A stretch of DNA of 64,000 nt from an uncultured Winogradskyella sp. (GCF_947498345.1 NZ_CANMJY010000005.1:225168-289167); one strand, 5' to 3'; counted from the stretch's first letter, positions 33,499 to 49,455 are shown. The notes: generated from the letters alone by a model not told the origin. Translations and numbers: made by a program.

Positions 33499-33553
33499 AC
33501 TTTTATAAAAACACTTATTTAATTACATTTACCCAAATTAAATTACAATCACT

Positions 33554-34300: not shown

Positions 34301-34321
34301 CTATTATATAATCATTTATTT

Positions 34322-34347
34322 AAAGAGGGCTTCTACCCTCTTTTTTT
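34322..34347 (+). terminator. Rho-independent terminator
   Basis: aaagaggg / ccctcttt stem with T tail. Confidence 0.75.
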
Positions 34348-34362
34348 ATTAACAAACAGAAA

Positions 34363-34869
34363 ATGAAGTCTACAATAGTCTCTATATTATTAGTATTTAC
34401 AACAATAGGCTTTAGTCAAGATAAATTTGATTTTAATGAAAAAGGCCTGGCGCCAGAATATATAATAGCTGCGATTGATAGTATACCAAAAAATACCTTA
34501 TATAAAAAAACACTCAAGTGGATTAAAAGCACGTCTAATAATCTAGAAATCCAAAATAAAACTAACACTATACAATTTACAGGTATTAAAGACAATGCAG
34601 TGCATGAAGGCAAACGTTATTTTCATATCAAATACACCATAAAAATTAGCTTCGAGGAAGGATTATACAAGTTTAAACCTTTAAAAGTGCAACTAAAAGC
34701 CAATAGTAAATACGATATGGGCTGGAAAGCATTTGATCTTAAAAAAGGGGACATATTCTTTAAAAAAGGAAAAGTGATAAAAAAGTTTAAATCCTATGTC
34801 AGTGATATCCCTAAAATATTAAATGACTTAAACGCCAATCTTTATAACTATTTAATAACCGAAGATTAA
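34363..34869 (+). CDS. Secreted hypothetical protein (DUF4468-like)
   Basis: Signal peptide; LYKKTLKWI...IKYTIKISFEEGLYKF; stop overlaps the integrase stop (TTAA 34866-34869). Confidence 0.6.
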   Translation: MKSTIVSILLVFTTIGFSQDKFDFNEKGLAPEYIIAAIDSIPKNTLYKKTLKWIKSTSNNLEIQNKTNTIQFTGIKDNAVHEGKRYFHIKYTIKISFEEGLYKFKPLKVQLKANSKYDMGWKAFDLKKGDIFFKKGKVIKKFKSYVSDIPKILNDLNANLYNYLITED

Positions 34870-35699
34870 AGTAAGTCCAAAGGGCTTTTTATATTTTCTA
34901 TAAATGCAGAAGACACACGCGTATAAATTTGAGTGGTCTTTATGTCTTTATGACCAAGCAATTTTTGGATAATCCTAATATCTGTTCCATTTTCTAATAA
35001 ATGTGTTGCAAAGCTATGCCTCAGTGTATGAGCTGTTATATTTTTTTTCACACTGACTCTTTTGGTTGCCTGTTTAATGACTTTCTGCAAACTACTTTGT
35101 GTATATTTCCCACCTTTATGTCCTTCAAATAAATACATCTTAGGTTTATATGCTTTAAAGTATTTTCGTAATTGTAGTTTTAGTTTATTAGAAAGCATAA
35201 CAATTCTATCTTTTTTCCCTTTGGAGTTTCTTATGATTACAATATTTCTAGAGCCATCAATATCAGATATTTGTAGATTTAAAAGCTCAGAACTTCGCAG
35301 TCCTAAGCCATAAAGACAAGCCATCATAGCTCTATGCTTTATATTGTCCGTCCTATTTAACAATAATTTCATTTCGCTTAATGATAAAACTATAGGTAAG
35401 TTATCAGGCATTTTTTTTACTGAAATGGCCTTAAATCTTATCGTTCTATCATACATCTCTTGGTAGAAGAGATTGAGAGCACTTAAACATTGCCTTTGCG
35501 TACTAAAAGCCATGCTCTTTTTTGTAATTTGCAGATATGCATTATTTAGTAATTCTTTATCGCTTAAATCTGCCCATTTAGAGAATTGAAACAAGTTAGC
35601 AAAGGTTTTTAAATGCGATTGATAATTGTCTATTGTATTTTGGCTATAGCCTTTTATTTCTAATAATTTACAAAACTTGCTAATTTCTTTAGTTATCAT
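34866..35699 (-). CDS. Integron-integrase-like tyrosine recombinase (SAM-like N-terminus) lacking the IntI insertion
   Basis: YSQNTIDNY, GLRSSE, SKGKKDR, HTLRHSFATHLLENG, LLGH, TTQIY, C-terminal SPLD; ATG 35699 preferred over 35747. Confidence 0.9.
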   Translation of the reverse strand: MITKEISKFCKLLEIKGYSQNTIDNYQSHLKTFANLFQFSKWADLSDKELLNNAYLQITKKSMAFSTQRQCLSALNLFYQEMYDRTIRFKAISVKKMPDNLPIVLSLSEMKLLLNRTDNIKHRAMMACLYGLGLRSSELLNLQISDIDGSRNIVIIRNSKGKKDRIVMLSNKLKLQLRKYFKAYKPKMYLFEGHKGGKYTQSSLQKVIKQATKRVSVKKNITAHTLRHSFATHLLENGTDIRIIQKLLGHKDIKTTQIYTRVSSAFIENIKSPLDLL

Positions 35700-35825
35700 A
35701 TATATACTAATTAGACATAAATATAGTAATACTATTTTTATACTCAATTGGTAGTTAGAAAATTAAAAGCTATCATTTTAGTGCGCTATGGTCGTCTAAA
35801 AAGTAACTTTTTTATATTTTGGCTA

Positions 35826-35846
35826 TTATAAACTAGTTGGCTGTAA
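35826..35846 (+). other. attI-like primary recombination site (TATAAACTAG|TTGGCTGTAA)
   Basis: Upstream of the divergent recombinase; GTTGGCTGTA (35836-35845) is the exact reverse complement of the end of unit 1. Confidence 0.7.
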
Positions 35847-35948
35847 TTTAAAAGTCCGTTAACTAAACGAAAATTAGTGTTTACTCATTAGACCTTTTTT
35901 ACATAAACTAACTGAATTAAATTGGTATTGAATTTTAAACGGAGAGAT

Positions 35949-36479
35949 TTGAAAAAAATAATACTTCTGATTTTCTTACTCAATTGCGGAATTGGAATTT
36001 CGCAAACTGAATTTCCATTTTATGAACAGATTGCGTTTGACTTTTATCAATCAACACTAATCGATTCCTTTCCAACTAAAAAGAAAGTAAAAGTTTATCC
36101 ATACGCACTTGATTTTCAACCTGACTATTTTGTTTTCAATAACCCAAGCTGTTTGGGAATAAAATGGAGAAGTAATGAGCAATTTGAGCCTCTAAAAGAT
36201 TATGTCGAATCCCAAATGAACATTGATTCAGATAGATTTGAATTGGACTTTTCTAAACTTGATAAAAAGAAGTTTAAAGTAAAAAAAAGAGGAAAAGGAA
36301 GTTATCCAAGACTGCATATCACAGCACCAAATAAAGAGATTGATGGAACAGAACGAATTTTCGTGAATATTCACGAGACACACGAATATTTATGGATTAG
36401 CTATCATCTTGAATTTAATGAAAATGGAGAAATAATTAATTGGTGCAGGAATTATGCTGAAGTAATAAGAACATATTAA
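35949..36479 (+). CDS. Cassette 1: secreted hypothetical protein
   Basis: TTG start with signal peptide KKIILLIFLLNCGIGISQ; no recognisable family. Confidence 0.75.
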   Translation: MKKIILLIFLLNCGIGISQTEFPFYEQIAFDFYQSTLIDSFPTKKKVKVYPYALDFQPDYFVFNNPSCLGIKWRSNEQFEPLKDYVESQMNIDSDRFELDFSKLDKKKFKVKKRGKGSYPRLHITAPNKEIDGTERIFVNIHETHEYLWISYHLEFNENGEIINWCRNYAEVIRTY

Positions 36480-36486
36480 TAAAAAC

Positions 36487-36626
36487 TACAGCCAACAATG
36501 TGTATAATTCATTGCTAGTTAGAGCCTACTTACGAAAGTCCTCACGGACTTTCTATCTGTGATTTATTTGCTATTTTAGTGCTTAAACACGCAACGAAAT
36601 CATACACTAGACCGTTATCCAACATT
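36487..36626 (+). repeat. attC-like imperfect palindrome 1 (123 bp from AAC to GTT)
   Basis: AAC..GTT ends, gtgtat/atacac, ttc.ttgc/gcaa.gaa, central gaaagtcc-tcac-ggactttc (36534-36553). Confidence 0.85.
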
Positions 36627-36635
36627 CAGAAAACC

Positions 36636-36839
36636 TTGAGAAAACGAAAAATCATTGGAATTCATTTTTTGACTTTTATCATTTTGGTAACTATTCTGTT
36701 TTTCTCGGCGGAGCCTTTATTAAATAGATTCGCTTCTGGAATTCACAATGTTGGAATGTGGCTGAACTTAATAATTTATGGAACAATTGTGATATTGATT
36801 TTGACTATTATTTCGTGTCTGATTTTCCTAAAAAATTAA
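36636..36839 (+). CDS. Cassette 2 gene A: small two-TM membrane protein
   Basis: Hydrophobic ORF; the called start 36579 lies inside the palindrome, so TTG 36636 is preferred. Confidence 0.55.
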   Translation: MRKRKIIGIHFLTFIILVTILFFSAEPLLNRFASGIHNVGMWLNLIIYGTIVILILTIISCLIFLKN

Positions 36840-36843
36840 CTGA

Positions 36844-37191
36844 ATGAAAGAACGACCTATTTTGATTTCAGCAATAATCCTGACCCTCATAATTGAATTA
36901 ATTTTAATTATATTGGTTTATAACAAAATTGGAACTGAAAGACTTCCATCTCAAATTGGAAGACTGACTATTCAACTGATTTTAATATTTTGGGTTTTAA
37001 ACAGTAAATCCCATATTGGTTTATTTTTATTAGCTGCCTACCATATTGTTTCTGGAATATTTGGAATGAATTCCAGTGGCTCGGCTGAATTACTTGGACA
37101 ATTATTAATTGGATTTCACATTGTAATCGGATTAGTAATTTATTTTCACTATTGGATTGAGGACAGAATCGGAATCAAAAATGTTGGCTAA
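36844..37191 (+). CDS. Cassette 2 gene B: four-TM hypothetical membrane protein
   Basis: 115-aa hydrophobic ORF whose TAA stop overlaps the GCTAAC inverse-core site. Confidence 0.75.
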   Translation: MKERPILISAIILTLIIELILIILVYNKIGTERLPSQIGRLTIQLILIFWVLNSKSHIGLFLLAAYHIVSGIFGMNSSGSAELLGQLLIGFHIVIGLVIYFHYWIEDRIGIKNVG

Positions 37192-37321
37192 CAACGTGTA
37201 TAGCGCATTGCGGTTGAATTCCTAATCGGAATTCATTGCAATTCACTATCTTTCGGTTACGTCGGATAATCCTAACTGATTTTCCGCAACTAACCATACA
37301 CGAACACGTTAGCTACAACTT
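37180..37321 (+). repeat. attC-like imperfect palindrome 2 (121 bp from AAC to GTT)
   Basis: AAC..GTT ends, gtgtat/atacac, ttgcgg/ccgcaa, inner gaattcc/ggaattc; end motifs shared with palindrome 1. Confidence 0.85.
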
Positions 37322-37435
37322 AACCTCTCTGCAAACTACAATCAAAAATTTACAAATTTATGTTAAACTAAAAAAATAGTTATATAACTATTTTTTTAGT
37401 TTTTATATTAGTCTGAATATTAAATCTTCTACTTT

Positions 37436-38746
37436 ATGAAAAAAGTTATAATACTCATAATTGTAATAATTTTAAATTCTGCCTGTAATAAATTCAATGG
37501 CAATAGTGAATTAAATTTTGAATTTCCAAAAAGTAAAATGGGTGAATTTGCAAAGGACTGGTTCTCTTATATCAATTCCAGAAATGACAATTATTTATTG
37601 ACTTACGATAAGAACAAAGAGTGGGAAGATCATTTATCTATGATAAAAGATATTTCTAGTCGAGTAGATGGCATAACACCGTATCTTATTTCTTATGAAA
37701 CTGAAGATTTCATTTCTATTTATTCAAAAGAAAAAAAAGGGTCATGGATAAAGGTTAATTTAGGATTGAATAGTGTAAATGAAATTACTGCAGCTGGTCT
37801 TAAAAAAACATATAAACCCATAGATTATGATCTCCGAAAGAAGTTAACAATAAAAGAAGTTAAAGAGATTATCGCTGATGTTTCTGAAAATTTAAGAACT
37901 AACTATGTCATTGAAAAGTCAAGGAGTATACTTGCCAATGAAATAGATCAATTTATGGCCAATGGAAGATATAACTCTATCAATCAAGGAGATTTACTTG
38001 CAGATGTATTAACAAAAGACTTAATCAACATCAGTAATGATAAGCACTTACAAATAATTCCTCCTAGTAGAATTTTAGAAGTAGAAAGTAGATTTGGAAT
38101 TACTAAGGATGAATTAGATTTTAATTTACCATTGGGTGATGAAACGTTAAAACTATCTAATATTAGCGCAAAAGTTCTTGAAAACAATATTGGTTACATT
38201 AAATTGGAAAGATTCGTATCCAATCTAAAAACCATTAACGACACCAAAGATGCATTTTCAACTCTTCTTGACACCAAGGCTGTTATTATTGATATAAGGT
38301 ATTCTAGTGGTGGTGATGGCTTGGCAGTTGCCGACTTATTATCTTACTTCTTTAAAAAAAATGAGCTAATTGCAACTTTAGCTGAATTGGGTGAAATTTC
38401 TTATCCTGAAAATAATACTAAAATAGATAACCTAAAATCTAAATTTCTGAAAAAACCATTATATGTTTTAACCAGTTCAAAAACTATTTCAGCTGGTGAG
38501 GCTTTTGTATATTTACTCAAAGCTAAAAAAAGAGCTCTTATTATTGGCGAAAAAACAGCTGGAGCAGGATTTAGGGTTGATGCATTCAAATTATCTAATG
38601 GATTTTATTTCGTTAATTCCATTTATACGAGTTTTGATATTGAAAACGGTGAAGGATGGCAAGGCTCTGGGGTATTACCCGATATTAACCTAGATAAAGC
38701 TAAATCTTTGGACGAAGCTATATCAATAATCCTTAACAAAGAATAA
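37436..38746 (+). CDS. S41 family peptidase (lipoprotein)
   Basis: Lipobox LNSAC, NIGYIKL, IIDIRYSSGGD, TISAGE, IIGEKTAGAG, GSGVLPDI. Confidence 0.88.
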   Translation: MKKVIILIIVIILNSACNKFNGNSELNFEFPKSKMGEFAKDWFSYINSRNDNYLLTYDKNKEWEDHLSMIKDISSRVDGITPYLISYETEDFISIYSKEKKGSWIKVNLGLNSVNEITAAGLKKTYKPIDYDLRKKLTIKEVKEIIADVSENLRTNYVIEKSRSILANEIDQFMANGRYNSINQGDLLADVLTKDLINISNDKHLQIIPPSRILEVESRFGITKDELDFNLPLGDETLKLSNISAKVLENNIGYIKLERFVSNLKTINDTKDAFSTLLDTKAVIIDIRYSSGGDGLAVADLLSYFFKKNELIATLAELGEISYPENNTKIDNLKSKFLKKPLYVLTSSKTISAGEAFVYLLKAKKRALIIGEKTAGAGFRVDAFKLSNGFYFVNSIYTSFDIENGEGWQGSGVLPDINLDKAKSLDEAISIILNKE

Positions 38747-38817
38747 TATAACTACATCTAATTAAAATAAAACCTTGGCAAGGTATAACTTAAACTGAAA
38801 CAGTAATCAAACTACTT

Positions 38818-40278
38818 ATGACTACCAGAACCCTAATTTTAAAAAGTCTTATAATATTATTAAGCTTTTCAGCTTGTGGTCAAATATCCTCAAATCAAAA
38901 AGGAATATCTAATGATGTTAAAATTGAATCAAACTATTTAGTAAAGGATTTAGAAACCTTAAAGTTATGGATAGAAAAAGCACATGGTGATCCTTACCGA
39001 TTTACTTCTAAAGAGGCTTTAGATAGTCAATTCGTATTAGCAAAAAAGAAAGTTTTGGCAAACAAACAAATAACAGCAAACGCCTTTGCAGGAATAGTAA
39101 TGCCCATTATTGCAGAATTAAGGGACGGTCACGCTCAAGTATTTCTTCCAGATTTAGATAAGATAGAAGGAAACATAATATTTCCTTTAAAATTTATATT
39201 TATCAACAATAAGCCACATGTAATTTCTGTTTTTTTTAAAAATGATAAAGTGGAAATTGGATCAGAAATATTGGAAATAAACGGGCAAAATGTAACATCA
39301 TTTTTCAATGAGATTATTCCTTATTTACACAGAGATGGGAATATAGAAAATGTTAGATACAGACGACTTCAAAATCAAATCTATTTTACAAAAGTAATGA
39401 TTGCCCTTGGAAAAGCTAAAGCAACATACGTTTTAAAACTTAAAACCAGAGAAGGAAAAATCATAACAACCTCTATAAGTGGTTTAAGCCAATTAGAATA
39501 TAATAGTAAAAAATCAAAAGATAAAGCATCAACCACGGCTCTAACCTATAAAAGAATAGATACCATAGAATCAACCTCCATTATAGATATTAATTCGTTT
39601 AATCCTCATTATTATCAGAAAGGAAAGTTTTATCAAAAGATAGATAGCATTATGAATATTGTTCAAAAAGATGACATCTCTAATTTAATTATTGACTTAA
39701 GAAATAATAATGGTGGGGAAGACTCTTATGTGATGTACTTATTGAGATACATATTAAATGACGGGTTTGCAATGAGCAGTGAAGTAACTTTTTCTCAAAA
39801 TGATTATAAATTTTTGCCAGATGGTAAACATTGGGATATTGACCCTAAATGTTTTAAACCTAATGATAAAGGAAGTTATGACGCTACCGAATTCTTATGG
39901 GAAGAATATCCTACATTAGGTACATTTCTACCTTTCAAAACTCGCTTTGGAGGCAAACTAGTTGTATTGATCAATGCTTTTACATTTTCAGCTGCCTCTG
40001 ATTTTGCAGCTCAACTACAATTTCATAAAAGAGCAACTTTTGTCGGTGAGGAAACTGGCGGAAGTCGTATCGGAAATGTTAGTGGTTATGTTCCTACCTT
40101 AGATTTACCAAATTCGCAAGTGAAAATTAATTTACCACTGATGAGCATTAAAAATCCTTTTTTTAATTCTCACTTTTCTGACAGAGGTGTAATTCCAGAC
40201 TATATGCTAGAACTAGGTATAAATGACATTTTAAAACAAAATGATATCGTTCTTAAAAAAGCAATAAGCCTTTTTTAA
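38818..40278 (+). CDS. S41 family peptidase (lipoprotein)
   Basis: Lipobox SFSAC, DGHA, IIDLRNNNGG, TFSAASDF, VGEETGG, GVIPD. Confidence 0.88.
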   Translation: MTTRTLILKSLIILLSFSACGQISSNQKGISNDVKIESNYLVKDLETLKLWIEKAHGDPYRFTSKEALDSQFVLAKKKVLANKQITANAFAGIVMPIIAELRDGHAQVFLPDLDKIEGNIIFPLKFIFINNKPHVISVFFKNDKVEIGSEILEINGQNVTSFFNEIIPYLHRDGNIENVRYRRLQNQIYFTKVMIALGKAKATYVLKLKTREGKIITTSISGLSQLEYNSKKSKDKASTTALTYKRIDTIESTSIIDINSFNPHYYQKGKFYQKIDSIMNIVQKDDISNLIIDLRNNNGGEDSYVMYLLRYILNDGFAMSSEVTFSQNDYKFLPDGKHWDIDPKCFKPNDKGSYDATEFLWEEYPTLGTFLPFKTRFGGKLVVLINAFTFSAASDFAAQLQFHKRATFVGEETGGSRIGNVSGYVPTLDLPNSQVKINLPLMSIKNPFFNSHFSDRGVIPDYMLELGINDILKQNDIVLKKAISLF

Positions 40279-40284
40279 GAATTT

Positions 40285-40319
40285 AACTGGCTACAACAAC
40301 CTATATAAAAATAGCGGTT
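40285..40319 (+). repeat. Left half of an attC-like element (truncated)
   Basis: ggctacAACaacctatataaaaatagcgg parallels ggctAACaacgtgtatagcgcattgcgg of palindrome 2; starts 7 bp after a stop codon; no right half. Confidence 0.5.
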
Positions 40320-40348
40320 AAGTTGATTAATCAGAATAAAACGAATAA

Positions 40349-40927
40349 ATGACTGAAAGTACTTTAATAAACCATATAAAAACTTATGTAACCCTTTCTG
40401 AAGAAGAATTATCAGAGATCATGACTTTTTTCGACGGTCATTCTTACAGTAAAAAGGAAACACTACTTCTTGCCGGAAAACGATGTAATAAACTATTTTT
40501 TGTAGCAAAAGGATGCTTACAATTATACTTTATAGATCATCTAGGCAATAAAAAAACATCGCAATTCGCCATGGAAAATTGGTGGTTAACAGACTTCTTA
40601 GCTTTTCAAAATCAAAAGCAATCCGATTTCTATATTGAAACTGTCGAAAACTCAAAGGTTTTATCGATTTCTTTTTTAAAATATCAAGAACTGTTAAATA
40701 GATTTCCTAAGATGGAGAAATATTTCAGATGTATATACCAAAGAGCTTATGGTGCTGCATTACTGCGCCTAAAATATATAAACAGCCTTTCTAAAGAAGA
40801 AATGTTTTTTAGGTTTAAAGATAATTTCCCCGAATTTGTACAACGTGTACCACAATACCTTTTAGCAAGTTTTCTTGGTTTAACACCCGAATATTTGAGC
40901 GAGATAAAAAAGAAGCAACTTTCTTAA
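40349..40927 (+). CDS. Crp/Fnr family transcriptional regulator (cNMP-binding)
   Basis: LFFVAKGCL, FAMENWW, VPQYLLASFLGLTPEYLS. Confidence 0.9.
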   Translation: MTESTLINHIKTYVTLSEEELSEIMTFFDGHSYSKKETLLLAGKRCNKLFFVAKGCLQLYFIDHLGNKKTSQFAMENWWLTDFLAFQNQKQSDFYIETVENSKVLSISFLKYQELLNRFPKMEKYFRCIYQRAYGAALLRLKYINSLSKEEMFFRFKDNFPEFVQRVPQYLLASFLGLTPEYLSEIKKKQLS

Positions 40928-40991
40928 ACCAGTTTAATTTTTTTTAGAACTTCCTCCAATAATTTTGCTCTAAATCTATAAAGCAAAACTA

Positions 40992-41456
40992 ATGGAACGT
41001 ATTACCTATCAAGATATTCCTGGCGGAATGTTTGAGAACTTAAGAACAATAGAAACTACTATTGAAAACACAACACTCAGCAAAAGTCTAATTGAATTAA
41101 TTCGGTTAAGAACGGCTCAATTAAATGGTTGTGCCTATTGTGTAGATATGCATTACAAAGAATTAAAACATTTAGGGGAAATTGAGTTGCGATTATCATC
41201 CCTTTGCGTTTGGGAAGAAACGCATTATTTTTCAGAGGAAGAAGAAGCTGTATTGAGACTAACCGATACACTTACCAAACTTAACCACAAGCCTTTTAAA
41301 GATGAGATATTCAATAAACTATTAAAGCACTTTATTAAACAGGAAATTTGCTATATAACCCTTGCTATAGCTCAAAGCAATACATGGAATCGCTTAATGA
41401 AAGTATTTGGGTTTACTCCCGGAAATTACACCGTAAATCAATACAAGACCAATTAA
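40992..41456 (+). CDS. Carboxymuconolactone decarboxylase / AhpD-like protein
   Basis: ELIRLRTAQLNGCAYCVDMH, SNTWNRL. Confidence 0.9.
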   Translation: MERITYQDIPGGMFENLRTIETTIENTTLSKSLIELIRLRTAQLNGCAYCVDMHYKELKHLGEIELRLSSLCVWEETHYFSEEEEAVLRLTDTLTKLNHKPFKDEIFNKLLKHFIKQEICYITLAIAQSNTWNRLMKVFGFTPGNYTVNQYKTN

Positions 41457-41468
41457 AAAGACCAAAAA

Positions 41469-42218: not shown

Positions 42219-42284
42219 ATACCACAAACAACACTTAATAGAACATAACAGTTTATGCTCAACTCAAACCGTTTTCATATAATT
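42219..42284 (+). repeat. Short degenerate attC-like element
   Basis: Begins at a stop codon with AACAAC, inner gaacataa/ttatgctc hairpin, ends aaaccGTT like palindromes 1 and 2. Confidence 0.45.
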
Positions 42285-42318
42285 GAAGTATATTGTAGTC
42301 TATAAAACAACAATAAAA

Positions 42319-42759
42319 ATGATACATAGATTACAATTTTCGATCAATATCAAGGCTGAAAAAAATGTGATATGGCGAGCATTATGGGGTGCAGATTATT
42401 ATCGTGATTGGGTTAGTGTATTTTTTGATGGTTCTTATGCCGTAACAGATAATTGGAAAGAAAAAAGCAAAGTTTTATTTCTGGCTCCAGACAAAAGTGG
42501 AATATATAGTATTATTGAAACACATATTCCGAATAAAATTATGAGTTTTAAACACATCGGAAATGTGGTAAAAGGACAAGAACAACCCATTGACGATGAT
42601 ACAAGAAAATGGTCTGGTGCTACAGAAACATATACAATTACCAAAGAAAAAAACAGTAATAAACTTACTGTTGAAATAGATATCCTTGATGAGCATCTTG
42701 ACTTTATGAAAAACACATTTCCTAAAGCATTAGAAAAGGTAAAAGCTAACTGCAATTAA
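42319..42759 (+). CDS. SRPBCC/AHSA1-like domain protein
   Basis: FSINIKA...VIW..LW...YRDW, WSGATETY, FPKALEKVK; ATG 42319 preferred. Confidence 0.75.
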   Translation: MIHRLQFSINIKAEKNVIWRALWGADYYRDWVSVFFDGSYAVTDNWKEKSKVLFLAPDKSGIYSIIETHIPNKIMSFKHIGNVVKGQEQPIDDDTRKWSGATETYTITKEKNSNKLTVEIDILDEHLDFMKNTFPKALEKVKANCN

Positions 42760-42766
42760 CATAGAA

Positions 42767-43066
42767 ATGGAAGGCAAAATTGAATATAAATTTTCAACAA
42801 AAATATGGAAGCATAACTCCTCGGGAGGTTGGCATTTTGTTTCCTTGCCAAAAACTATATCAAAAGAAATAAGGAAAAATCTAAAATGGCAGGAAGAAGG
42901 TTGGGGAAGAATGAAAGCTCATGCCCAAATTGATGCTCATAAATGGGAAACTGCTATTTGGTTTGACTCTAAAAAAGGGACTTACCTACTCCCTATCAAA
43001 GCTGAAATTAGGAAAAAATCAAATCTAAAAACGAATAATAAAATTAAAATGAATATTTGGGTTTAG
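42767..43066 (+). CDS. DUF1905 family protein
   Basis: GGWHFVSLP, GWGRMK, WETAIW, YLLPIKAEIRK. Confidence 0.8.
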   Translation: MEGKIEYKFSTKIWKHNSSGGWHFVSLPKTISKEIRKNLKWQEEGWGRMKAHAQIDAHKWETAIWFDSKKGTYLLPIKAEIRKKSNLKTNNKIKMNIWV

Positions 43067-43143
43067 ATGAAAAATAAACACACTAACCATGCTGATAATA
43101 CTTTTATAACAAATCTATTTATTGTTATTTCCTAATTAGCGTA

Positions 43144-43911
43144 ATGTTAAAACAAAATGCAATGATTAGAATACACGCTGCTTACCACAAATGCCTTACT
43201 ATGTTTTTCTTTAGAACGGCCAATAATGCTCTAAACACTTTAGCGCTTTCAAGAAAAAAACAATACGAACATTTTGAGAGTATACAAGGGCTGTTTTATA
43301 ATACAATGAACCAATACTATCTTTGCTCTATTAATAATTTTGCCCCTAATATTGACAAAATAAATGGGGATTTCCGTATAAGCAGGTTTGTTAGAGACCC
43401 TCGAGATCTTATTGTCTCTGGGTATTTTTATCATAAAAGAGGAGCAGAACCTTGGTTTCGATTTAAAGATCCTACTGAAGAATATTGGAGCGCAATCAAT
43501 GGTCATGTACCTTCAGGCATGCCTTCAGGTAAATCTTTTGCTGAATATTTAAGCACATTAAATGAGTCGGATGGTTTAATGAAGGAGATAGAGTTTAGAA
43601 AATATCATTTGGAAAGTATGAGACAATGGCCAAAAGATACTCGTATCAAAACTTTTAGATATGAAGATATAATTTCTGATCAGGTCGGTGCTTTTTCTGA
43701 AATACTAGATCATCTCCAAATCAAAGGTTTTAAAAGAAAAAAACTTCTGCTTTTTGCCAATAGATATGCGTTACAAAACAGAAAAAATGATAAGCATATA
43801 AGAAACCCTCAAGCTAGTCAATGGAGAAAATATTTTACTCCAAAAATGAATACGGATTTTGTTCAGGAATATGGAGATATCTTAGAAAGATATGGATACC
43901 CAAAAGAATAA
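43144..43911 (+). CDS. Sulfotransferase domain protein
   Basis: HKCLT (5'-PSB variant), RDPRDLIVSGY (3'-PB), RYEDI, HIRN. Confidence 0.8.
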   Translation: MLKQNAMIRIHAAYHKCLTMFFFRTANNALNTLALSRKKQYEHFESIQGLFYNTMNQYYLCSINNFAPNIDKINGDFRISRFVRDPRDLIVSGYFYHKRGAEPWFRFKDPTEEYWSAINGHVPSGMPSGKSFAEYLSTLNESDGLMKEIEFRKYHLESMRQWPKDTRIKTFRYEDIISDQVGAFSEILDHLQIKGFKRKKLLLFANRYALQNRKNDKHIRNPQASQWRKYFTPKMNTDFVQEYGDILERYGYPKE

Positions 43912-44098
43912 GACTCAAAACTTATTCATCAAGCGTACCCTATGATTTAGCTACTCAATTAAAACCTGTTATTAATAACGCATACTACTAATTAACAGGT
44001 TCTCACCTACTCGGAAATTTCCATATATTAAAAAGATGAAGCAACCATTAATAAAAATTTTACGTCTTTTTAAATAACATGAACATTCAATAAAAAGA

Positions 44099-45175
44099 AT
44101 GAAAAAACGAATAATAGGAATCGATGTAGCTAGAGCGTTAGCTGTAATCGGAATGATCATAGTAAACTTTAAAATGGTTTTTGGCCAAAATGGATCTGGT
44201 TGGATAAAATCAATTACAAGTGTTTTTGACGGAAAGGCAGCTGCAACTTTTGTTGTACTTGCGGGATTAGGGTTAGCGCTAATGACAAATTTAGCTATTA
44301 AAGACAATGATCAAACCAAACTAAAAAAGATTAAAGCTAAAATCACCAAAAGAGCCCTGTTCTTGTTTATAATAGGCATATCATACACGGCAATTTGGCC
44401 TGCAGATATTCTACATTTCTATGGTCTTTATATGGTAATCACAATACTACTATTAACAAGCAGTGAAAAAATCATTTTAACATCTGCTATTTCTATCATT
44501 ATTGCTTTTCCTATACTTATAATATTTTGGAATTATGAAACAGGTTGGAATTTTAACACATTAGAATATCTAGATTTTTGGACCATAAAAGGGTTTATGA
44601 GAAACCTCATTTTTAATGGTTTTCACCCAATAATTCCCTGGACTGCTTTTATGCTATTTGGTTATTGGTTTGGAAAGCAAAACCTGAACAATGATAAGTA
44701 TATAAGGAAAACATTTTCGGTGAGTATTCTAGTCTTTATTTTCATTCAAACTCTATCTAATTTATCTATTTCATTCTTATCTGAAGGAAACCAAAATACC
44801 GCAAAAATACTGACTGAAATTCTTGGAACAAATCCAATGCCTCCATTACCAGTCTATATGTTCAGTGGAATTTCTATTGCCTTTACCACAATCTCTGTTT
44901 GTATTATAATGGCAAAACGTTTTGAAAAAAATATCATTATTAAGGCCTTAACCGAAACCGGGCAATTGGCTTTAACTTTTTATGTAGCGCATGTTATTAT
45001 TGGCATGGGAATAATAGAAGTAATTAATTCTTCAAAAATAGGAAAGTTCTCTATTGAATTTTCAGTAGCCTATGCGTTAGGATTTAGCTTATTTTGTATT
45101 CTATTTGCCATAATTTGGAGAAACTATAAAAAACTTGGCCCGTTAGAATGGATTATACGAAAAGTTACAGATTAA
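44099..45175 (+). CDS. DUF418 family multi-pass membrane protein
   Basis: RIIGIDVARALA, GQLALTFYVAH, GPLEWIIR. Confidence 0.85.
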   Translation: MKKRIIGIDVARALAVIGMIIVNFKMVFGQNGSGWIKSITSVFDGKAAATFVVLAGLGLALMTNLAIKDNDQTKLKKIKAKITKRALFLFIIGISYTAIWPADILHFYGLYMVITILLLTSSEKIILTSAISIIIAFPILIIFWNYETGWNFNTLEYLDFWTIKGFMRNLIFNGFHPIIPWTAFMLFGYWFGKQNLNNDKYIRKTFSVSILVFIFIQTLSNLSISFLSEGNQNTAKILTEILGTNPMPPLPVYMFSGISIAFTTISVCIIMAKRFEKNIIIKALTETGQLALTFYVAHVIIGMGIIEVINSSKIGKFSIEFSVAYALGFSLFCILFAIIWRNYKKLGPLEWIIRKVTD

Positions 45176-45319
45176 GAAACCCATAGATAACTACTGTTTA
45201 ACCCTCAAACAGCTATTCATTTAATTAAAGTATATTGTAAGCTGAAAAGCAGTTATATACAACCAGTTACTGCTCATACATAATCATATAATTTTAAATA
45301 ATCCAAAGAAAAATATAAA

Positions 45320-46078
45320 ATGAGCAAACAACTAAAAAGCATGATTGAAAAGCATTGCGAAAATCCACCAGCTAAATATGATGACCTAAAAGTATTGTTT
45401 CTTAATTGTACTTTAAATCGAACACCTGTACTATCACACACTGAAGGGCTTATAAAAAAAGCACAAATGATTTTTGAATCTGTAGGTGCTTCTACAAAAA
45501 TAATTAGACCTGTTGATTATGATATTCCTGCAGGATTAGGTCTCGATATGTCTAAAACACCTGAATGGGACAAAGACGATTGGCCAATTATTCAAAAAGA
45601 AATAGATGAATGTGATATTTTAATTTTGTGTACATCTGTTTGGCTTGGAGAAAAATCCTCTGTGTGCAACCGTACACTAGAGAGAATGTATGGGTATACC
45701 CATAAGTTTAATAAAAAAGGCCAGTATAGAGATTACGACAAAGTTGGAGCTACTTTAATCACTGGAAATGAAGATGGTGTAAAACATTGTGCAATGAATA
45801 TTTTATTTTCATTATCTCACATAGGGTATACAGTTCCACCTCAAGCAGATGCAGGATGGATGGGTGAAGCTGGTCCTGGTCCTTCTTACATGGATGAAGG
45901 TTCTGGTGGTCCTGAAAATGATTTTACAAATCGAAATACTACTTTCCTAGTATGGAATTGTTTGCACTTGGCAAGATTATTAAAGGATAATGGAGGAATA
46001 CCTGCTTACGGAAATCAACCAGATGAATGGAAAGCTGGATGCCAAGCAGGATTTAATAGTCCTGAACACAAAAGATAA
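45320..46078 (+). CDS. Flavodoxin-like / NADPH-dependent FMN reductase family protein
   Basis: LFLNCTL...SHT, DILILCTSVWLG, TGNEDG, YTVPPQAD. Confidence 0.85.
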   Translation: MSKQLKSMIEKHCENPPAKYDDLKVLFLNCTLNRTPVLSHTEGLIKKAQMIFESVGASTKIIRPVDYDIPAGLGLDMSKTPEWDKDDWPIIQKEIDECDILILCTSVWLGEKSSVCNRTLERMYGYTHKFNKKGQYRDYDKVGATLITGNEDGVKHCAMNILFSLSHIGYTVPPQADAGWMGEAGPGPSYMDEGSGGPENDFTNRNTTFLVWNCLHLARLLKDNGGIPAYGNQPDEWKAGCQAGFNSPEHKR

Positions 46079-46081
46079 AAA

Positions 46082-46369
46082 CTAATCTTTATAGCTTATA
46101 CGATCTCTAATCCCTCCATTTTGACGATGGATAATTACATCTGCTTTATAACGCTTAGCCAAGGTTTTTGCCTTACGTATAGCAGTACTTTGCTTCCTAT
46201 GTTTTGAGGTAATGCGTTTATTGCCCTCGCGTCGTATAGCCCAACCGTTTTCATAAGGTACAACATGTTGATGCCAAGTACGTTTTTTATCACTTCTATA
46301 GCCCAAAGCATTTAGAATGGCTTCTATAAGTTTTAGGATAGCATCTAAGAGAGTATTTTGCTTAGGCAT
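46082..46369 (-). CDS. DUF2188 family protein
   Basis: HQHVVPYENGWAIRREG, VIIHRQNGGIRDRISY. Confidence 0.85.
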   Translation of the reverse strand: MPKQNTLLDAILKLIEAILNALGYRSDKKRTWHQHVVPYENGWAIRREGNKRITSKHRKQSTAIRKAKTLAKRYKADVIIHRQNGGIRDRISYKD

Positions 46370-46441
46370 TAAAATATTTATTTTTAGATTGTTACCTCCA
46401 TATAATTCTCAATGACGATTATAATAACCTAAGATAAAAAA

Positions 46442-46461
46442 GCCCTTGGGTTGGCAAGGGC
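46442..46461. terminator. Possible terminator hairpin
   Basis: gcccttg / caagggc stem just past the stop of 46468..47205, with a T run on the minus strand. Confidence 0.55.
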
Positions 46462-46467
46462 AATAAA

Positions 46468-47205
46468 TTATTTATCTTTTAAAATAAAACCACCCTTAAC
46501 TAGCCAGGAGAAACCAAAGGATTCTACAGCAAGAGTTTCCATCCAAAAGGTGAGATTATTATTTTCATAAATAGCTTTTGGAAAAATATCTATAAAATAA
46601 GAAAACATAATTAATAGCGCTATGAGCATCAATGAACCGCAAACAATATATACTAGATTACGTTTTTTCTTTTCTGGTGTTCTATTAGCTTTTAATTGAT
46701 CGGATTTAGTAAACAAAAAGAAGCACATATAATTGAGTATGCTTAAAAATACCGCTGCACTGATATAATGAAATTTAACTCTAAAACCACTTTCTTTAAT
46801 ATAGGTCATACTCTGTGTATCACATACATTACAACAACTTGTTGCTATGCTATCTGTTGGAAAAAGTAAAACAAGAAGCGCTGCAAAACCTGCTAAAAAT
46901 GATAAAAAGAAGTCTATAGGTTTATGACGTTTATAGATCATTAAAAAAATGGCCATAAGACTTACTACAATAATAAATACTGGATTAGACCTCGTAAAAA
47001 AATAATGACTAATAGATGGTAATTCTTCTAAACGACCTGTATTGAGGTACAAAAACAACCACAGTAAAATGGGTAAAAGCATCCCTAAAACACCTATCAA
47101 CTTCATCAAGGTTTCTATACTGGTAAGCCATGGTCTATTTACATCCTGTATGTCTACATTAAGCATTTTACATGCTTTTGCTGAAAAATTTTGCTGCTTT
47201 TGCAT
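46468..47205 (-). CDS. Multi-pass membrane protein (DUF998-like)
   Basis: SISHYF, HYISAAVF, ETLAVESFGFSWLVKG. Confidence 0.65.
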   Translation of the reverse strand: MQKQQNFSAKACKMLNVDIQDVNRPWLTSIETLMKLIGVLGMLLPILLWLFLYLNTGRLEELPSISHYFFTRSNPVFIIVVSLMAIFLMIYKRHKPIDFFLSFLAGFAALLVLLFPTDSIATSCCNVCDTQSMTYIKESGFRVKFHYISAAVFLSILNYMCFFLFTKSDQLKANRTPEKKKRNLVYIVCGSLMLIALLIMFSYFIDIFPKAIYENNNLTFWMETLAVESFGFSWLVKGGFILKDK

Positions 47206-47462
47206 AATAAAGTATTTAAACTAAGTTACTCATTTCCCTTTTAATTTTATAACCCTATCGTAACTGAAAAATTATTTTTTAGTTCCTCAAAATTCAGTAC
47301 AATACAATATTACATATCAAAATTAATGCAAATAAATGCTTGATTTTTTCATAATATAGGTTGGTTTTAATTAATAGTTAAAATTAATTGCTAACACTAC
47401 AGCTTACCATACCTAATACTGGGCATGTTTTTATTATTATAACTATAAAATATATAACGTTT

Positions 47463-47960
47463 TTAAGACCTATTGAAATACTGAGCGACAATTGGAATTA
47501 GCATTCCGAAAAATGTAGTTGCCATATTAGAGATACTTTCCATAGCATTTTCATTTAAAATAATCCAAAGTGCTATTGAACCGATACCAACAACAATATA
47601 TGCTAATGCGTAGAAAAATCCCATTTTTTCTTTACTTTCATTAGGCTTATTGTCAGAGATTGAATATGATCCTAAATTTTGCAATTTATATGCAAAAGTT
47701 TTAACCGAAGATTCTTCGACTTCATTACCCGAATCTGGAGGCTTAACTCCAAATCCTGAAGCTACAATACCTCCTACTAAACCTGTTAAACCACTTGTAA
47801 CATATGTTAAAGCAGAATTTAATTCTTCTCTGTAATTATCTGGTAATTTACCATCTACCAATATTTCAAAAGATAGATAAAATAAATACCCAGAACACGC
47901 TAAAAACCCTAGTAGAGCTAGAATTACAAGTAATTGAATAAGGATTTTTTGATTTTTCAT
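47463..47960 (-). CDS. Hypothetical membrane protein
   Basis: 165 aa with about four hydrophobic helices. Confidence 0.7.
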   Translation of the reverse strand: MKNQKILIQLLVILALLGFLACSGYLFYLSFEILVDGKLPDNYREELNSALTYVTSGLTGLVGGIVASGFGVKPPDSGNEVEESSVKTFAYKLQNLGSYSISDNKPNESKEKMGFFYALAYIVVGIGSIALWIILNENAMESISNMATTFFGMLIPIVAQYFNRS

Positions 47961-48005
47961 AATATGTATTTTATATTTTAGATGAATCTTTATTGAGAAA
48001 AATAA

Positions 48006-49061
48006 TTATACTATTATATTTTCAGTTAAGGTCAAAGACACAGGTCTATGATCACTCGTTCGGGTTTTCGAATTAGATCCTGCATTTGCACGTTCAAAAA
48101 TTTCATGTTCTACCATACCAGCTTTAGCATTTACTTTTAAAGGGAAACTACCATTGCACAAGGGTTGACTCATTAATATATGATCTATAAGTAATGGATT
48201 TCTACTCGCTGGGATATTTAATATAGGATCCCTAAAGCGCGAAGTCCATCTTAAATCCGCTGAAAAATCAAATAGTGCATGATTAAAATAGCGTTCTGCC
48301 AGCATTACATCACCTTGTAAGTTTTGTATTAGATCAAAGAATAAGTATTGTGTTTCAAAAAAGTCGTGACCTGGTCCATCATTACAATCACCAAGTATAA
48401 TAATACCAGGCGATTCTAATTGATTAAACTTTGCCTCTACATAATGTCTAATGTTTCTTGCTTCAGTAGCAAGTTTTACCCTTGCCTTTAATGCTGTTTC
48501 AAGATAACTACCCGTAAGATTTCCGTTGGCATCTTTTGTAATTCCTTTGAGGTTTATCTTAGATTTAAGGTGCACACCAATGCATTCAATTTCTTGACCA
48601 TTATCTAAAGTATAAATCAATACTTGAGGGTGCCGATAATGCTTATGATCATCAGGTAATACTTTCCCCCAATAATTAACTTTCCACCGATCTGTATTAA
48701 CAAATGCCTTCCATACATCTGCTTCTTGCAAACGACATTGAGATAAAACGTTGGGTTTTACCAAAAACCATAACCACTGTGTCCCGCCCATATGATTGCC
48801 ATAATCGCGATCGCGATCACCTATTTGATTATTATCTCCTTTAAGTAAAACCGGTACCCATTGGTTATTAAGTACACGGTCACAAAATTTAATGATCTCG
48901 GCCTCCCCTTTAGGGCCTTCTACAATAAGAAGAATATCCGCATCAATAGATTCAATAGTTTCTTGCACACGTTTTTTGCGATCATCAATTATTTGAGATG
49001 GGTTTTCTTTAATTAAATCTTTGGCATGTTTTATATTCCAGGTGGAAATTTTTAATGGCAT
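48006..49061 (-). CDS. Endonuclease/exonuclease/phosphatase (EEP) family protein
   Basis: STWNI, LIVE, VHLKS, GDCND, IDHIL, SDHRPV. Confidence 0.88.
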   Translation of the reverse strand: MPLKISTWNIKHAKDLIKENPSQIIDDRKKRVQETIESIDADILLIVEGPKGEAEIIKFCDRVLNNQWVPVLLKGDNNQIGDRDRDYGNHMGGTQWLWFLVKPNVLSQCRLQEADVWKAFVNTDRWKVNYWGKVLPDDHKHYRHPQVLIYTLDNGQEIECIGVHLKSKINLKGITKDANGNLTGSYLETALKARVKLATEARNIRHYVEAKFNQLESPGIIILGDCNDGPGHDFFETQYLFFDLIQNLQGDVMLAERYFNHALFDFSADLRWTSRFRDPILNIPASRNPLLIDHILMSQPLCNGSFPLKVNAKAGMVEHEIFERANAGSNSKTRTSDHRPVSLTLTENIIV

Positions 49062-49140
49062 AATACGTTGATTTATGTTAATAATTAATAGCAGGCACTA
49101 AAACATACCATATCCGTTGAGGATATATTTTACGTTTCGT

Positions 49141-49215
49141 GCAGTCAACAACGAATTATGTAATTCAGTGCTGTTAAGGAAGCAGCACTTAATGAATTAA
49201 ATATAAGTTATTTAA
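49141..49215 (+). repeat. Short attC-like palindrome (63 bp from AAC to GTT), likely distal end of the array
   Basis: cagtcAACaacg..taattcagtgc resembles cagccAACaatg..taattcattgc of palindrome 1; stems taattca/tgaatta and agtgctg/cagcact; GTT at 49207. Confidence 0.55.
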
Positions 49216-49432
49216 AATTCTTAGAATTAAGTTTTAAATTAGATAAAACGTTAATATTTTCTTTGTAATGAAGTTTTAAGATCATTACTAAATATATTTT
49301 TATCAAAATCGAAATCACTCAAAAAAATATCATAGCATTTAGTATGTATGGTTTCTTTTTTAAATTTATACTCCTGCTAATTGGTAATGACAAATGGTCT
49401 ATACCTTCACATCAATTTAACATCTAAAATTG

Positions 49433-49440
49433 TACCTTTG
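49433..49440 (+). promoter_or_regulatory. -7 promoter element TACCTTTG for uvrA
   Basis: TAnnTTTG match 16 bp before ATG 49456. Confidence 0.65.
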
Positions 49441-49455
49441 CACTTTTGCCAATTT

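What the first reader, a model, noticed from the sequence alone, without database searches (positions are those of the whole stretch)
34866..49215. Integron-like gene-cassette platform in a flavobacterium driven by a non-IntI tyrosine recombinase
Seen: a tyrosine recombinase gene (minus strand) is divergent from an array of short, co-oriented, unrelated genes. These are separated by ~120-bp imperfect palindromes that start at or just after stop codons (AAC) and end in GTT. A lone GTT half-site sits between the recombinase and gene 1. Established: intI-attI-[gene-attC]n is the integron architecture; integrons are mainly documented in Proteobacteria and are detected by an IntI-specific insertion. 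Inference: this is a parallel or sister cassette-shuffling system that standard integron searches would miss. From memory the palindromes may overlap the Rfam Flavo-1 motif; if so, that motif could be a DNA recombination site rather than an RNA.
Basis: partly seen in the sequence, partly recalled or inferred. Interest (0 to 1): 0.93.

Follow-up and report, generated by a model that had tools for sequence, protein, structure and literature searches.

The report
Integron-like cassette platform, insertion-less integrase
This marine flavobacterium (genus Winogradskyella) carries a working-looking gene-capture system built like an integron, but its recombinase lacks the domain that defines integron integrases; the same system occurs in most Flavobacteriaceae, and I found no published description of it.

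Summary
A 277-aa tyrosine recombinase (34866-35699, minus strand) faces away from two cassettes (35836-36616 and 36617-37310). Each cassette ends in a ~122-nt imperfect palindrome that runs AAC...GTT. The remaining 12 kb up to 49215 holds no intact site.

The sites belong to a family of about 60 copies in about 10 co-oriented arrays in this genome. Three results show integron-type cassettes with crossover at GTT:
- The 10 nt after each GTT complement the 10 nt before the next site's AAC in 24 of 30 neighbouring pairs, against 3.4% of random pairs.
- Cassette 1 recurs at 100% identity in a second array, and the identity stops exactly at the GTTs.
- Cassette ORFs run 40:1 on the same strand as the sites.

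The recombinase has all catalytic residues but lacks the IntI-specific insertion. No canonical IntI exists in this genome or in the sampled Flavobacteriaceae. Homologues of the recombinase head such arrays in many genera, and one sits on a plasmid. Sites occur in 108 of 121 Flavobacteriaceae genera.

The Flavo-1 idea is wrong: Flavo-1 is a different element. I found no published description. My verdict is a new variant of the integron kind, of high interest. Catalysis and a single-stranded substrate are inferred, not shown.

The parts
34866..35699 (-). Tyrosine recombinase of the IntI/XerA-like kind that lacks the IntI-specific insertion. It is 277 aa from the ATG at 35699; the frame stays open up to the TTG at 35747 (293 aa).
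   Evidence: Pfam PF00589 and PF13495 match. NCBIfam XerA_Arch scores 222.8 bits against a cut-off of 220. TIGR02249 (integron integrase) scores 204 bits against a cut-off of 265, in two pieces that skip profile positions 181-238. Against VchIntIA (2A3V), 15 query residues replace chain residues 185-243. The AlphaFold model (pLDDT 86.6) best matches XerA 5HXY and IntI4 2A3V, with TM 0.76 and about 40 gap columns. R, K, H-x-x-R-H and Y are invariant in the family alignment. This is the only copy in the genome.
35700..35838 (+). Intergenic region that ends in the attI-like junction ...TATAAACTA|GTT, where the first cassette is inserted. Promoters are expected here but were not resolved.
   Evidence: The GTT at 35836-35838 is followed by GGCTGTAATT, which complements the 10 nt before site 1 (9/10). 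Homologous loci end the conserved recombinase-side DNA at ...AAC|GTT. Two Paludibacteraceae loci are alike up to that point and differ beyond it. There is no perfect Bacteroidetes TAnnTTTG box, only near matches such as TATATTTT at 35813.
35836..36616 (+). Cassette 1 (781 bp). It holds one ORF, 35922-36479 (185 aa, no Pfam match), followed by site 1.
   Evidence: It is 100% identical over exactly 781 bp to C5:300461-301241, inside another array of the same genome. The identity begins at one GTT and ends at the other. Pfam finds nothing.
36494..36616 (+). attC-like site 1 (123 nt, AAC...GTT).
   Evidence: R1 scores it at 108 bits. It fits the family alignment.
36617..37310 (+). Cassette 2 (694 bp). 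It holds two small membrane-protein ORFs (about 36636-36839 and 36844-37191), followed by site 2. The TAA stop of the second ORF lies inside the R'' box GCTAAC.
   Evidence: Its first bases, GTTATCCAACATT, complement AATGTTGGCTAAC before site 2 (9/10). Pfam finds nothing.
37190..37310 (+). attC-like site 2 (121 nt, AAC...GTT), the last intact site of this array.
   Evidence: R1 scores it at 101 bits. As DNA it folds into a long imperfect hairpin, z -4.8 on the top strand and -5.3 on the bottom strand.
37365..37402 (.). Perfect 19+19-nt palindrome just after the last site. It may be a two-way terminator at the end of the array; its function is unknown.
   Evidence: Inverted repeat I23 is 100% complementary with no gap.
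40285..40335 (+). Left half of a decayed site, directly after the stop of the second S41 peptidase gene.
   Evidence: nhmmer aligns it to model positions 3-54 (AACTGGCTACAACAACCTATATAAA-AATAGCGG), E 0.31 over 12 kb. This is suggestive only.
49142..49217 (+). It may be a short or decayed site.
   Evidence: R1 scores it at 13.6 bits, E 0.078. Its left flank does not complement the flank after site 2.

Best explanation
This is a complete element of an integron-type gene-cassette system. It consists of a dedicated tyrosine recombinase, an attI-like insertion point beside its gene, and two promoterless cassettes that each end in a folded attC-like site.

The proposed mechanism follows integrons. 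The recombinase binds the paired R box (AAC/GTT plus flanks) and L box (GTGTAT/ATACAC) of the hairpin-forming site. It cuts within the GTT/AAC triplet, excises a cassette as a circle by site-by-site recombination, and inserts circles at the attI-like GTT next to its gene or at other sites. About 55 further sites in about 10 arrays elsewhere in the genome have no recombinase of their own and are served in trans by this single gene.

Shown by sequence:
- the cassette boundaries and the position of the crossover triplet;
- a recent duplication or movement of one cassette;
- selection on pairing in the sites;
- the orientation and compactness of cassettes;
- absence of the IntI insertion;
- linkage of the recombinase family with arrays across taxa.

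Inferred:
- that this protein is the catalyst;
- that the substrate is a folded single strand (bottom strand);
- that the element is active today.
For: 1. The site family has 59-66 copies in this genome, clustered and co-oriented.
2. The 10 nt after the GTT of site n complement the 10 nt before the AAC of site n+1 at 8-9/10 in 24 of 30 adjacent pairs. The rate among random pairs is 3.4% (binomial p 4e-30). The site's own two flanks match only at the random level. This is the signature of a circular cassette cut at G|TT.
3. The same rule recovers chains of 9 and 14 cassettes next to canonical IntI genes of the same phylum, which serves as a positive control. It finds 0 chains in 80 shuffled loci.
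4. Cassette 1 is 100% identical to a cassette in another array, and the identity ends exactly at the GTTs.
5. The stems covary: 92.9% of cells are paired against 81% in shuffles, and there are 48 double changes against 9.8 (0 of 500 shuffles reach either value).
6. I delimited 30 cassettes of 0.5-2.5 kb. ORFs of 50 aa or more run 40:1 on the site's strand and end about 10-20 nt before the site.
7. Reconstituted sites fold into long hairpins, and the bottom strand is the more stable one in 26 of 30.
8. Homologues of the recombinase head arrays in Winogradskyella, with up to 21 sites in 17 kb. They also do so in Ichthyenterobacterium, Flagellimonas, Psychroflexus, Flavobacterium, Paludibacteraceae, Chitinophagaceae, Saprospiraceae, Prolixibacteraceae and Ignavibacteria.
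9. Among 121 Flavobacteriaceae genera, 87 have both sites and recombinase, 21 have sites only, 2 have the recombinase only, and 11 have neither (Fisher p 5e-6).
10. Two Paludibacteraceae loci share the recombinase side up to the GTT and then differ. An 845-bp cassette at 97% identity sits at different array positions in the two loci.
11. There is no canonical IntI in this genome.
Against: - There is no experimental or read-level evidence for circles or excision.
- The array beside the recombinase has only two cassettes.
- No clear cassette promoter was found.
- The protein lacks the I2 helix. In classical IntI that helix recognises the extrahelical bases of folded attC and is reported as necessary for activity (cited in PMC9668308 and PMC8138268). 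How this protein would recognise a single-stranded site is therefore unexplained.
- 21 genera have sites but no detected recombinase. Draft assemblies and orphan arrays could account for this.
Confidence: 0.85

Rival explanations
1. The cassettes are real, but another enzyme moves them, such as the housekeeping XerC/D-like paralogues or an unlinked gene. The adjacent recombinase would then have another role or be a passenger.
For: The genome has at least three other Xer-like tyrosine recombinases. Most arrays in this genome have no recombinase nearby. 21 of 108 site-bearing genera show no family member at E <= 1e-42.
Against: Wherever flanking DNA is available, family members sit at the very head of an array, in many genera and in two gene orientations. 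The first cassette junction lies 50-140 nt from the gene. The family diverges fast (37-49% identity within the genus, against 85-94% for YebC), which is unlike housekeeping Xer.
Confidence: 0.06
2. The palindromes are selfish or structural intergenic repeats (REP/BIME-like, MITE-like, or terminators) that spread on their own, and the gene units between them are not mobile cassettes.
For: They are abundant, intergenic, hairpin-forming and lie at the 3' ends of genes.
Against: A self-spreading repeat would carry its own two ends. Here the flank after each site pairs with the flank before the next site, not with its own. A whole gene-plus-site unit is duplicated with GTT boundaries. A shared cassette sits at different array positions in relatives. 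The sites are co-oriented in arrays that start at a recombinase gene.
Confidence: 0.02
3. The architecture is the same, but the chemistry is Xer-like on double-stranded DNA. Without the I2 helix, the enzyme would recombine duplex sites rather than a folded single strand.
For: The insertion that reads extrahelical bases is absent. The closest solved folds include XerA, which acts on duplex dif. G-T wobble pairs, which would mark one strand, are rare in the stems.
Against: In duplex form, the bases around the crossover (L'-spacer-GTT-next cassette) are not an inverted repeat of two binding arms. The two arms exist only when R''/R' and L''/L' pair within one strand. The spacers are conserved and unequal, 3 nt against 5-6 nt. 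Covariation is maintained over 120 nt. The long cassette-specific R-box complementarity has a use only in a folded or circular form. The bottom strand is more stable in 26 of 30 sites.
Confidence: 0.2
4. The element in this window is a relic. The system was active in the lineage, but this recombinase or this attI no longer works.
For: There are only two cassettes. Decayed site remnants lie downstream. No clear promoter was found. Pseudogenised family members exist in other genomes, with stop codons.
Against: The ORF is intact with all catalytic residues. The model is confident. A 100% identical cassette copy in a second array argues for a very recent event.
Confidence: 0.12

Closest known systems
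Sedentary chromosomal integrons and integrase-less arrays (CALINs), e.g. the Vibrio superintegron with ~125-nt VCR attC sites
   Same: - The recombinase gene sits beside an attI-like point.
- The arrays hold compact, co-oriented, mostly promoterless cassettes.
- The sites are imperfect palindromes with R''(…AAC)-L''…L'-R'(GTT…), unequal spacers and variable centres.
- Crossover is in GTT, so each cassette starts with the partner of its own R''.
- Sites within a genome resemble each other.
- Many orphan arrays exist.
- Array content differs between species.
- Cassettes encode mixed accessory functions.
   Different: - The recombinase lacks the IntI-specific insertion and falls below the NCBIfam integron-integrase cut-off.
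- The cassette-specific R-box complementarity extends about 10 nt beyond the triplet, against about 6 nt beside canonical IntI.
- The site family is not found next to canonical IntI genes.
- The host clade is one where surveys report almost no integrons (PMC9024848).
- In most genera the recombinase gene points toward the array, and it often has an unknown N-terminal extension.
Archaeal XerA / bacterial XerC-XerD chromosome dimer resolvases
   Same: The protein has the same simple two-domain fold without an arm-binding domain. XerA gives the best sequence and fold matches (4A8E, 5HXY). It passes the NCBIfam XerA_Arch cut-off by 3 bits.
   Different: - It is not conserved like a housekeeping gene: 37-49% identity among congeners, and absent from some.
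- It is linked to cassette arrays rather than to a single dif site.
- It branches apart from the genome's own Xer paralogues, SH-aLRT 99.
'Inverted-integrase' integrons (Treponema, Chlorobi and similar; known from my own reading of the literature, not tested here)
   Same: In most Flavobacteriaceae the recombinase gene is co-oriented with the cassettes and lies upstream of them.
   Different: Those elements have canonical IntI with the insertion. The window itself has the classical divergent arrangement.

Membership tests
Integron (IntI + attI + attC cassettes) | The integrase carries the IntI-specific additional domain (I2 helix around patch III). | tested here: not met
   TIGR02249 matches in two pieces that skip positions 181-238, scoring 204 bits against a cut-off of 265. 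There is a 43-residue gap against VchIntIA 2A3V. The model shows no helix there.
Integron (IntI + attI + attC cassettes) | The catalytic tyrosine-recombinase set R-K-H-R-H-Y is present. | tested here: met
   R135, K160, H224, R227, H250 and Y259 are invariant in 33 family members. They align to the XerA and IntI4 active sites.
Integron (IntI + attI + attC cassettes) | attC sites are imperfect palindromes with R''-L''...L'-R', conserved AAC/GTT, a variable centre, and a length of about 57-141 nt. | tested here: met
   The sites are 120-127 nt with conserved boxes, unrelated centres and covarying stems.
Integron (IntI + attI + attC cassettes) | Crossover is at G|TT, so each cassette begins with the partner of its own R'' box. 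| tested here: met
   24 of 30 adjacent pairs are complementary at 8-9/10, against 3.4% of random pairs. The identical cassette copy is bounded by GTTs. The same rule holds beside canonical IntI.
Integron (IntI + attI + attC cassettes) | An attI next to the integrase gene is the preferred insertion point. | tested here: inconclusive
   A GTT junction lies 136 nt from the start codon. Relatives keep ...AAC|GTT and diverge right after it. No insertion event was observed.
Integron (IntI + attI + attC cassettes) | The cassettes are promoterless and co-oriented, and a Pc promoter drives them. | tested here: inconclusive
   ORF orientation is 40:1 and 5' leaders are short. No clear Bacteroidetes-type promoter was found at 35700-35835.
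Integron (IntI + attI + attC cassettes) | IntegronFinder detects the element (its attC covariance model and intI_Cterm profile). | not testable with these tools
   Neither model is available here. The published survey lists only In0 elements and one Salinibacter integron for Bacteroidetes (PMC9024848). Its supplements name no flavobacterial genus.
Integron (IntI + attI + attC cassettes) | Excision and integration of cassettes have been demonstrated. | not testable with these tools
No other strain is on record.
Xer/dif dimer resolution (XerA type) | A conserved, vertically inherited housekeeping gene acts on one dif site. | tested here: not met
   Congeners share 37-49% identity, against 85-94% for YebC next door. 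The gene is missing at the locus in 5 congeners. It is always beside multi-site arrays.
Rfam Flavo-1 (RF01705) | The sequence matches the Flavo-1 covariance model. | tested here: not met
   There is no hit at the gathering score or at E <= 10 on the sites. True Flavo-1 hits in L060 and L071 are a different GC-rich 76-nt element away from the sites.
REP/BIME or MITE repeats | The unit is self-contained, with its own paired ends, and spreads alone. | tested here: not met
   A site's own two flanks match at chance level (4.3/10), while its flanks match those of neighbouring sites. Gene-plus-site units move together.

The most novel reading that the evidence does not exclude
Integron-type capture of gene cassettes does not need the IntI-specific domain. 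A large, unannotated class of integrons, run by plain Xer-like recombinases with their own attC family, is near-universal in Flavobacteriaceae (108 of 121 genera) and present in other Bacteroidota and Ignavibacteria. It reaches plasmids. It may represent the ancestral state from which canonical IntI arose, since canonical IntI forms one clade inside this insertion-less radiation in my tree.
Probability: 0.45. Interest if true: 0.95.

Novelty: new variant of a known kind. Interest (0 to 1): 0.86.

Why it matters
Integrons are defined and searched for by an integrase domain that this system lacks. Its cassettes, dozens per genome in one of the main bacterial families of the ocean, are therefore invisible to current surveys.

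If the recombinase is shown to act on these sites, three consequences follow.
- The I2 helix would not be a universal requirement for attC-type recombination.
- The long-standing question of how integron integrases evolved from Xer-like enzymes could be tested with living intermediates or sister forms.
- A very large pool of mobile accessory genes in Bacteroidota would open up. That pool includes hydrolases, regulators and defence-like proteins, and on one plasmid a cassette next to a resistance gene.

This window is especially useful because it holds the complete unit (recombinase, insertion point, two intact cassettes) together with an identical cassette copy elsewhere in the genome.

Tried and rejected
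- Rfam scans of the window at the gathering score, and of 35700-37500 at E <= 10, gave nothing relevant. I rejected the Flavo-1 link after seeing true Flavo-1 hits elsewhere.
- A generic repeat finder did not show the family, because the centres of the sites differ. A short-pattern search in the window sat at chance level.
- I looked for intact sites in 37311-49400 with the full model and a maximally sensitive nhmmer run. Only remnants turned up. The complement of the flank after site 2 occurs nowhere else in the window.
- A DNA search of the 12 kb downstream region in 24 congeners showed only scattered single-gene matches at other loci. The region is species-specific but is not demonstrably made of cassettes.
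- No exact YebC protein is on record, so other strains of the species were not available.
- The sites have no match in the phage collection, and site 2 has none in plasmids by blastn. The covariance model did find two sites on one plasmid.
- DPANN archaeal homologues (about 40-45% identity) showed no cassette chains under the strict rule. I make no claim about them.
- R1 found no sites beside canonical IntI genes.
- Nine literature searches found no description of this system. The library lacks most subscription journals, so this does not prove that none exists.

Full report
WHAT IS IN THE WINDOW. The ORF at 34866-35747 on the minus strand encodes a tyrosine recombinase. Relatives start about where its Met-17 lies, so the likely product is 277 aa from the ATG at 35699. 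Pfam finds the phage-integrase catalytic domain and a SAM-like N-terminal domain.

Downstream on the plus strand lie two units. The first is 35836-36616, with one 185-aa ORF. The second is 36617-37310, with two small membrane-protein ORFs. Each ends in an imperfect palindrome that runs from AAC to GTT, at 36494-36616 (123 nt) and 37190-37310 (121 nt). The two palindromes share their end boxes (AACAAYGTGTATA..CATTGC on the left, GCAAC..CATACAC..CGTT on the right) but have unrelated centres. A lone GTT at 35836 lies between the recombinase gene and the first ORF.

The observation does not hold for the rest of the stated span. A full-model scan of 33000-50000 finds no further intact site. The later intergenic gaps are too short. 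Four genes are on the other strand, and two neighbouring genes are paralogous S41 peptidases. Only remnants appear: a left half-site at 40285-40335 and a weak 76-nt AAC...GTT palindrome at 49142-49217. The 12 kb after site 2 is species-specific, but I cannot show that it consists of cassettes.

THE SITES ARE A GENOME-WIDE FAMILY WITH CASSETTE LOGIC. A box-based regular expression, followed by an HMM, found about 60 copies in the 3.8-Mb genome. They are grouped into about 10 co-oriented arrays plus singletons, several of them at contig ends. The covariance model R1, built from 40 copies, finds 59.

The decisive feature is in the flanks. The 10 nt after the GTT of one site are complementary at 8-9/10 to the 10 nt before the AAC of the next site in 24 of 30 adjacent pairs. 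The same level is reached by 3.4% of random pairs (p about 4e-30), and a site's own two flanks match only at chance level. This is what is expected if each unit GTT...gene...site was once a circle with a fully paired R box that was opened within GTT, as integron cassettes are. The window obeys the rule twice: at 35836 with site 1, and at 36614 with site 2.

As a positive control, the same rule recovers chains of 9 and 14 cassettes next to canonical IntI genes from other classes of the phylum. It finds none in 80 shuffled loci.

Further support comes from several directions.
- Cassette 1 recurs at 100% identity over exactly 781 bp inside another array (C5:300461-301241). The identity starts at one GTT and ends at the other, while the DNA on both sides differs.
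- The stems covary: 92.9% of cells are paired against 81% in shuffles, and there are 48 double substitutions against 9.8 (0 of 500 shuffles reach either value). Slid registers collapse.
- I delimited 30 cassettes of 0.5-2.5 kb. ORFs of at least 50 aa run 40:1 on the strand of the site and end about 10-20 nt before it.
- Sites rebuilt with their true R' partner fold into long hairpins with unequal spacers (3 nt against 5-6 nt). The bottom strand is more stable in 26 of 30.
- Cassette products are a typical accessory mix: a beta-lactamase-fold hydrolase with a GntR regulator, a caspase-like peptidase, AraC and ECF-sigma regulators, a TlpA-like redoxin, an FRG-domain protein, an SDR and several unknowns.

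THE RECOMBINASE. It scores 222.8 bits on NCBIfam XerA_Arch (cut-off 220). On the integron-integrase model TIGR02249 it scores 204 bits (cut-off 265), and the match comes in two pieces that skip profile positions 181-238. Against the solved integron integrase VchIntIA (2A3V), 15 residues stand in place of chain residues 185-243, which is the IntI-specific insertion.

An AlphaFold model (pLDDT 86.6) matches XerA (5HXY) and IntI4 (2A3V, TM 0.76) best. It shows about 40 gap columns against IntI4 and no helix in that place. The catalytic residues are invariant across 33 relatives. It is the only copy in the genome, and no protein in the genome reaches the integron-integrase cut-off.

LINKAGE ACROSS GENOMES. 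The genus is Winogradskyella; one handle's chromosome length equals that of NZ_CP138990.1.
- All 24 congeners carry tens of sites.
- In about 10 of them a family member sits directly after yebC, as in the window. It occurs in either orientation and always has sites next to it. At other loci up to 21 sites follow the gene within 17 kb. Five congeners have an empty yebC locus. No window cassette gene is shared.
- Identity among these recombinases is 37-49%, while YebC is 85-94% identical.

Outside the genus, R1 sites or rule-based cassette chains lie beside homologues in Ichthyenterobacterium, Flagellimonas, Psychroflexus, Flavobacterium, Paludibacteraceae, Chitinophagaceae, Saprospiraceae (with sites of only about 60 nt), Prolixibacteraceae and Ignavibacteria.

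With one genome per genus of Flavobacteriaceae, sites occur in 108 of 121 and the recombinase in 89 of 121. The split is 87 with both, 21 with sites only, 2 with the recombinase only and 11 with neither (Fisher p 5e-6). The genomes with neither are mostly small, so size and phylogeny confound this test. An exact 22-nt left box occurs in dozens of marine genera.

Two Paludibacteraceae loci are alike from the recombinase to ...AACGTTGTG and then differ. They share an 845-bp cassette (97% identity) at different distances from the gene. That pattern fits insertion at the head of the array.

A mobilizable Flagellimonas marinaquae plasmid (NZ_CP092416.1) carries a homologue, annotated there as "site-specific tyrosine recombinase/integron integrase". 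Two sites on it flank a dihydrofolate-reductase-family gene, beside erm(F) and a Tn3-family transposase.

RELATION TO CANONICAL INTEGRONS. Canonical IntI (over the TIGR02249 cut-off) is common in other classes of the phylum: 114 of 401 sampled genomes. In the same sample it appears once in the window's class and not at all in Flavobacteriaceae. R1 finds no sites beside those genes, so the site families differ.

In a quick maximum-likelihood tree, canonical IntI is one well-supported clade. The insertion-less, array-linked proteins form several clades around it. All of them are separated from the genome's own Xer paralogues (SH-aLRT 99). The deeper order is unresolved, so I cannot tell ancestral from sister from secondary loss.

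The family has three length classes. The window's is about 277 aa. The others are about 355-400 aa and about 585 aa, with N-terminal extensions that have no Pfam match.

WHAT IS KNOWN. The IntegronFinder 2.0 survey reports only In0 elements and one Salinibacter integron for Bacteroidetes (PMC9024848), and its supplements name no flavobacterial genus. Reviews list Bacteroidota among phyla with some integrons (PMC8618304). A classification of tyrosine recombinases noted that the insertion is "not fully conserved" in its integron-like subgroup, without describing arrays (PMC8138268). Archaeal integrons were reported with 539 attC sites but only six IntI genes (PMC9668308). Nine searches found no description of the flavobacterial system; the library lacks most subscription journals.

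Notes from other agents of this scan report the same system in at least 17 other genomes. They agree with my reading but are not independent evidence.

It does not match the sites. Its true hits in two Flavobacterium loci are GC-rich 76-nt sequences upstream of the recombinase gene. A transcriptome paper found Flavo-1 hits in both orientations with no clear role (PMC9723704).

VERDICT. The window holds a complete, apparently intact element of an integron-like cassette system whose recombinase fails the defining test for integron integrases. It works like an integron with high confidence on the architecture: cassette boundaries, crossover triplet, and dedicated recombinase by linkage. Three points are unproven: catalysis by this protein, the use of a folded single strand, and present-day activity. 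I file it as a new variant of a known kind. It is of high interest because it is near-universal in a major marine family and bears directly on how integron integrases evolved.

Noticed in passing
L231 (plasmid NZ_CP092416.1) 10808-13724: A mobilizable Flagellimonas marinaquae plasmid carries a 46%-identical recombinase homologue. Two R1 sites (98 and 31 bits) on it flank a dihydrofolate-reductase-family gene. Next to these lie erm(F) and a Tn3-family transposase. The cassette system therefore reaches mobile elements that also carry a resistance gene.
   Followed up: partly
L060 8879-8965 and L071 7766-7843: True Rfam Flavo-1 hits (50 and 58 bits) lie 1-2 kb upstream of the long-type recombinase genes in two Flavobacterium loci. 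They are GC-rich 76-nt elements unrelated to the AAC...GTT sites. Whether their position is more than chance is unknown.
   Followed up: partly
window 37365-37402: A perfect 19+19-nt palindrome (AAACTAAAAAAATAGTTAT|ATAACTATTTTTTTAGTTT) lies 55 nt after the last intact site. It may be a two-way terminator that closes the array.
   Followed up: no
The genome search phylum sample; L244-L251: Canonical integron integrases over the NCBIfam cut-off occur in 114 of 401 sampled genomes of the phylum. Almost all are in classes other than the window's. Chains of up to 14 cassettes with ~80-nt sites lie beside them. This is far more than published surveys of complete genomes suggest.
   Followed up: partly
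L215 1819-2955; L060 recombinase ORF: Most array-linked relatives are longer (355-400 aa or about 585 aa). Their N-terminal extensions of 80-300 aa have no Pfam match. These could be extra DNA-binding domains.
   Followed up: partly
L017, L019, L023, L026, L036 and other DPANN loci: The nearest relatives outside Bacteroidota and Ignavibacteria are XerA-like proteins of Woesearchaeota and Nanoarchaeota (40-45% identity). No cassette chains were found beside them under the strict rule. Published archaeal attC arrays mostly lack a detectable IntI.
   Followed up: partly
window 37436-40278: Two adjacent paralogous S41 peptidase genes are followed by a decayed left half-site at 40285-40335. Together they may be an old two-gene cassette that lost its site.
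   Followed up: partly
L215 4823-6766: One cassette-sized unit in a congener's array encodes a 647-aa protein with a P-loop motif (GEWGSGKT) that looks like a KAP-family NTPase. This would fit reports that chromosomal integron cassettes often carry defence genes.
   Followed up: no
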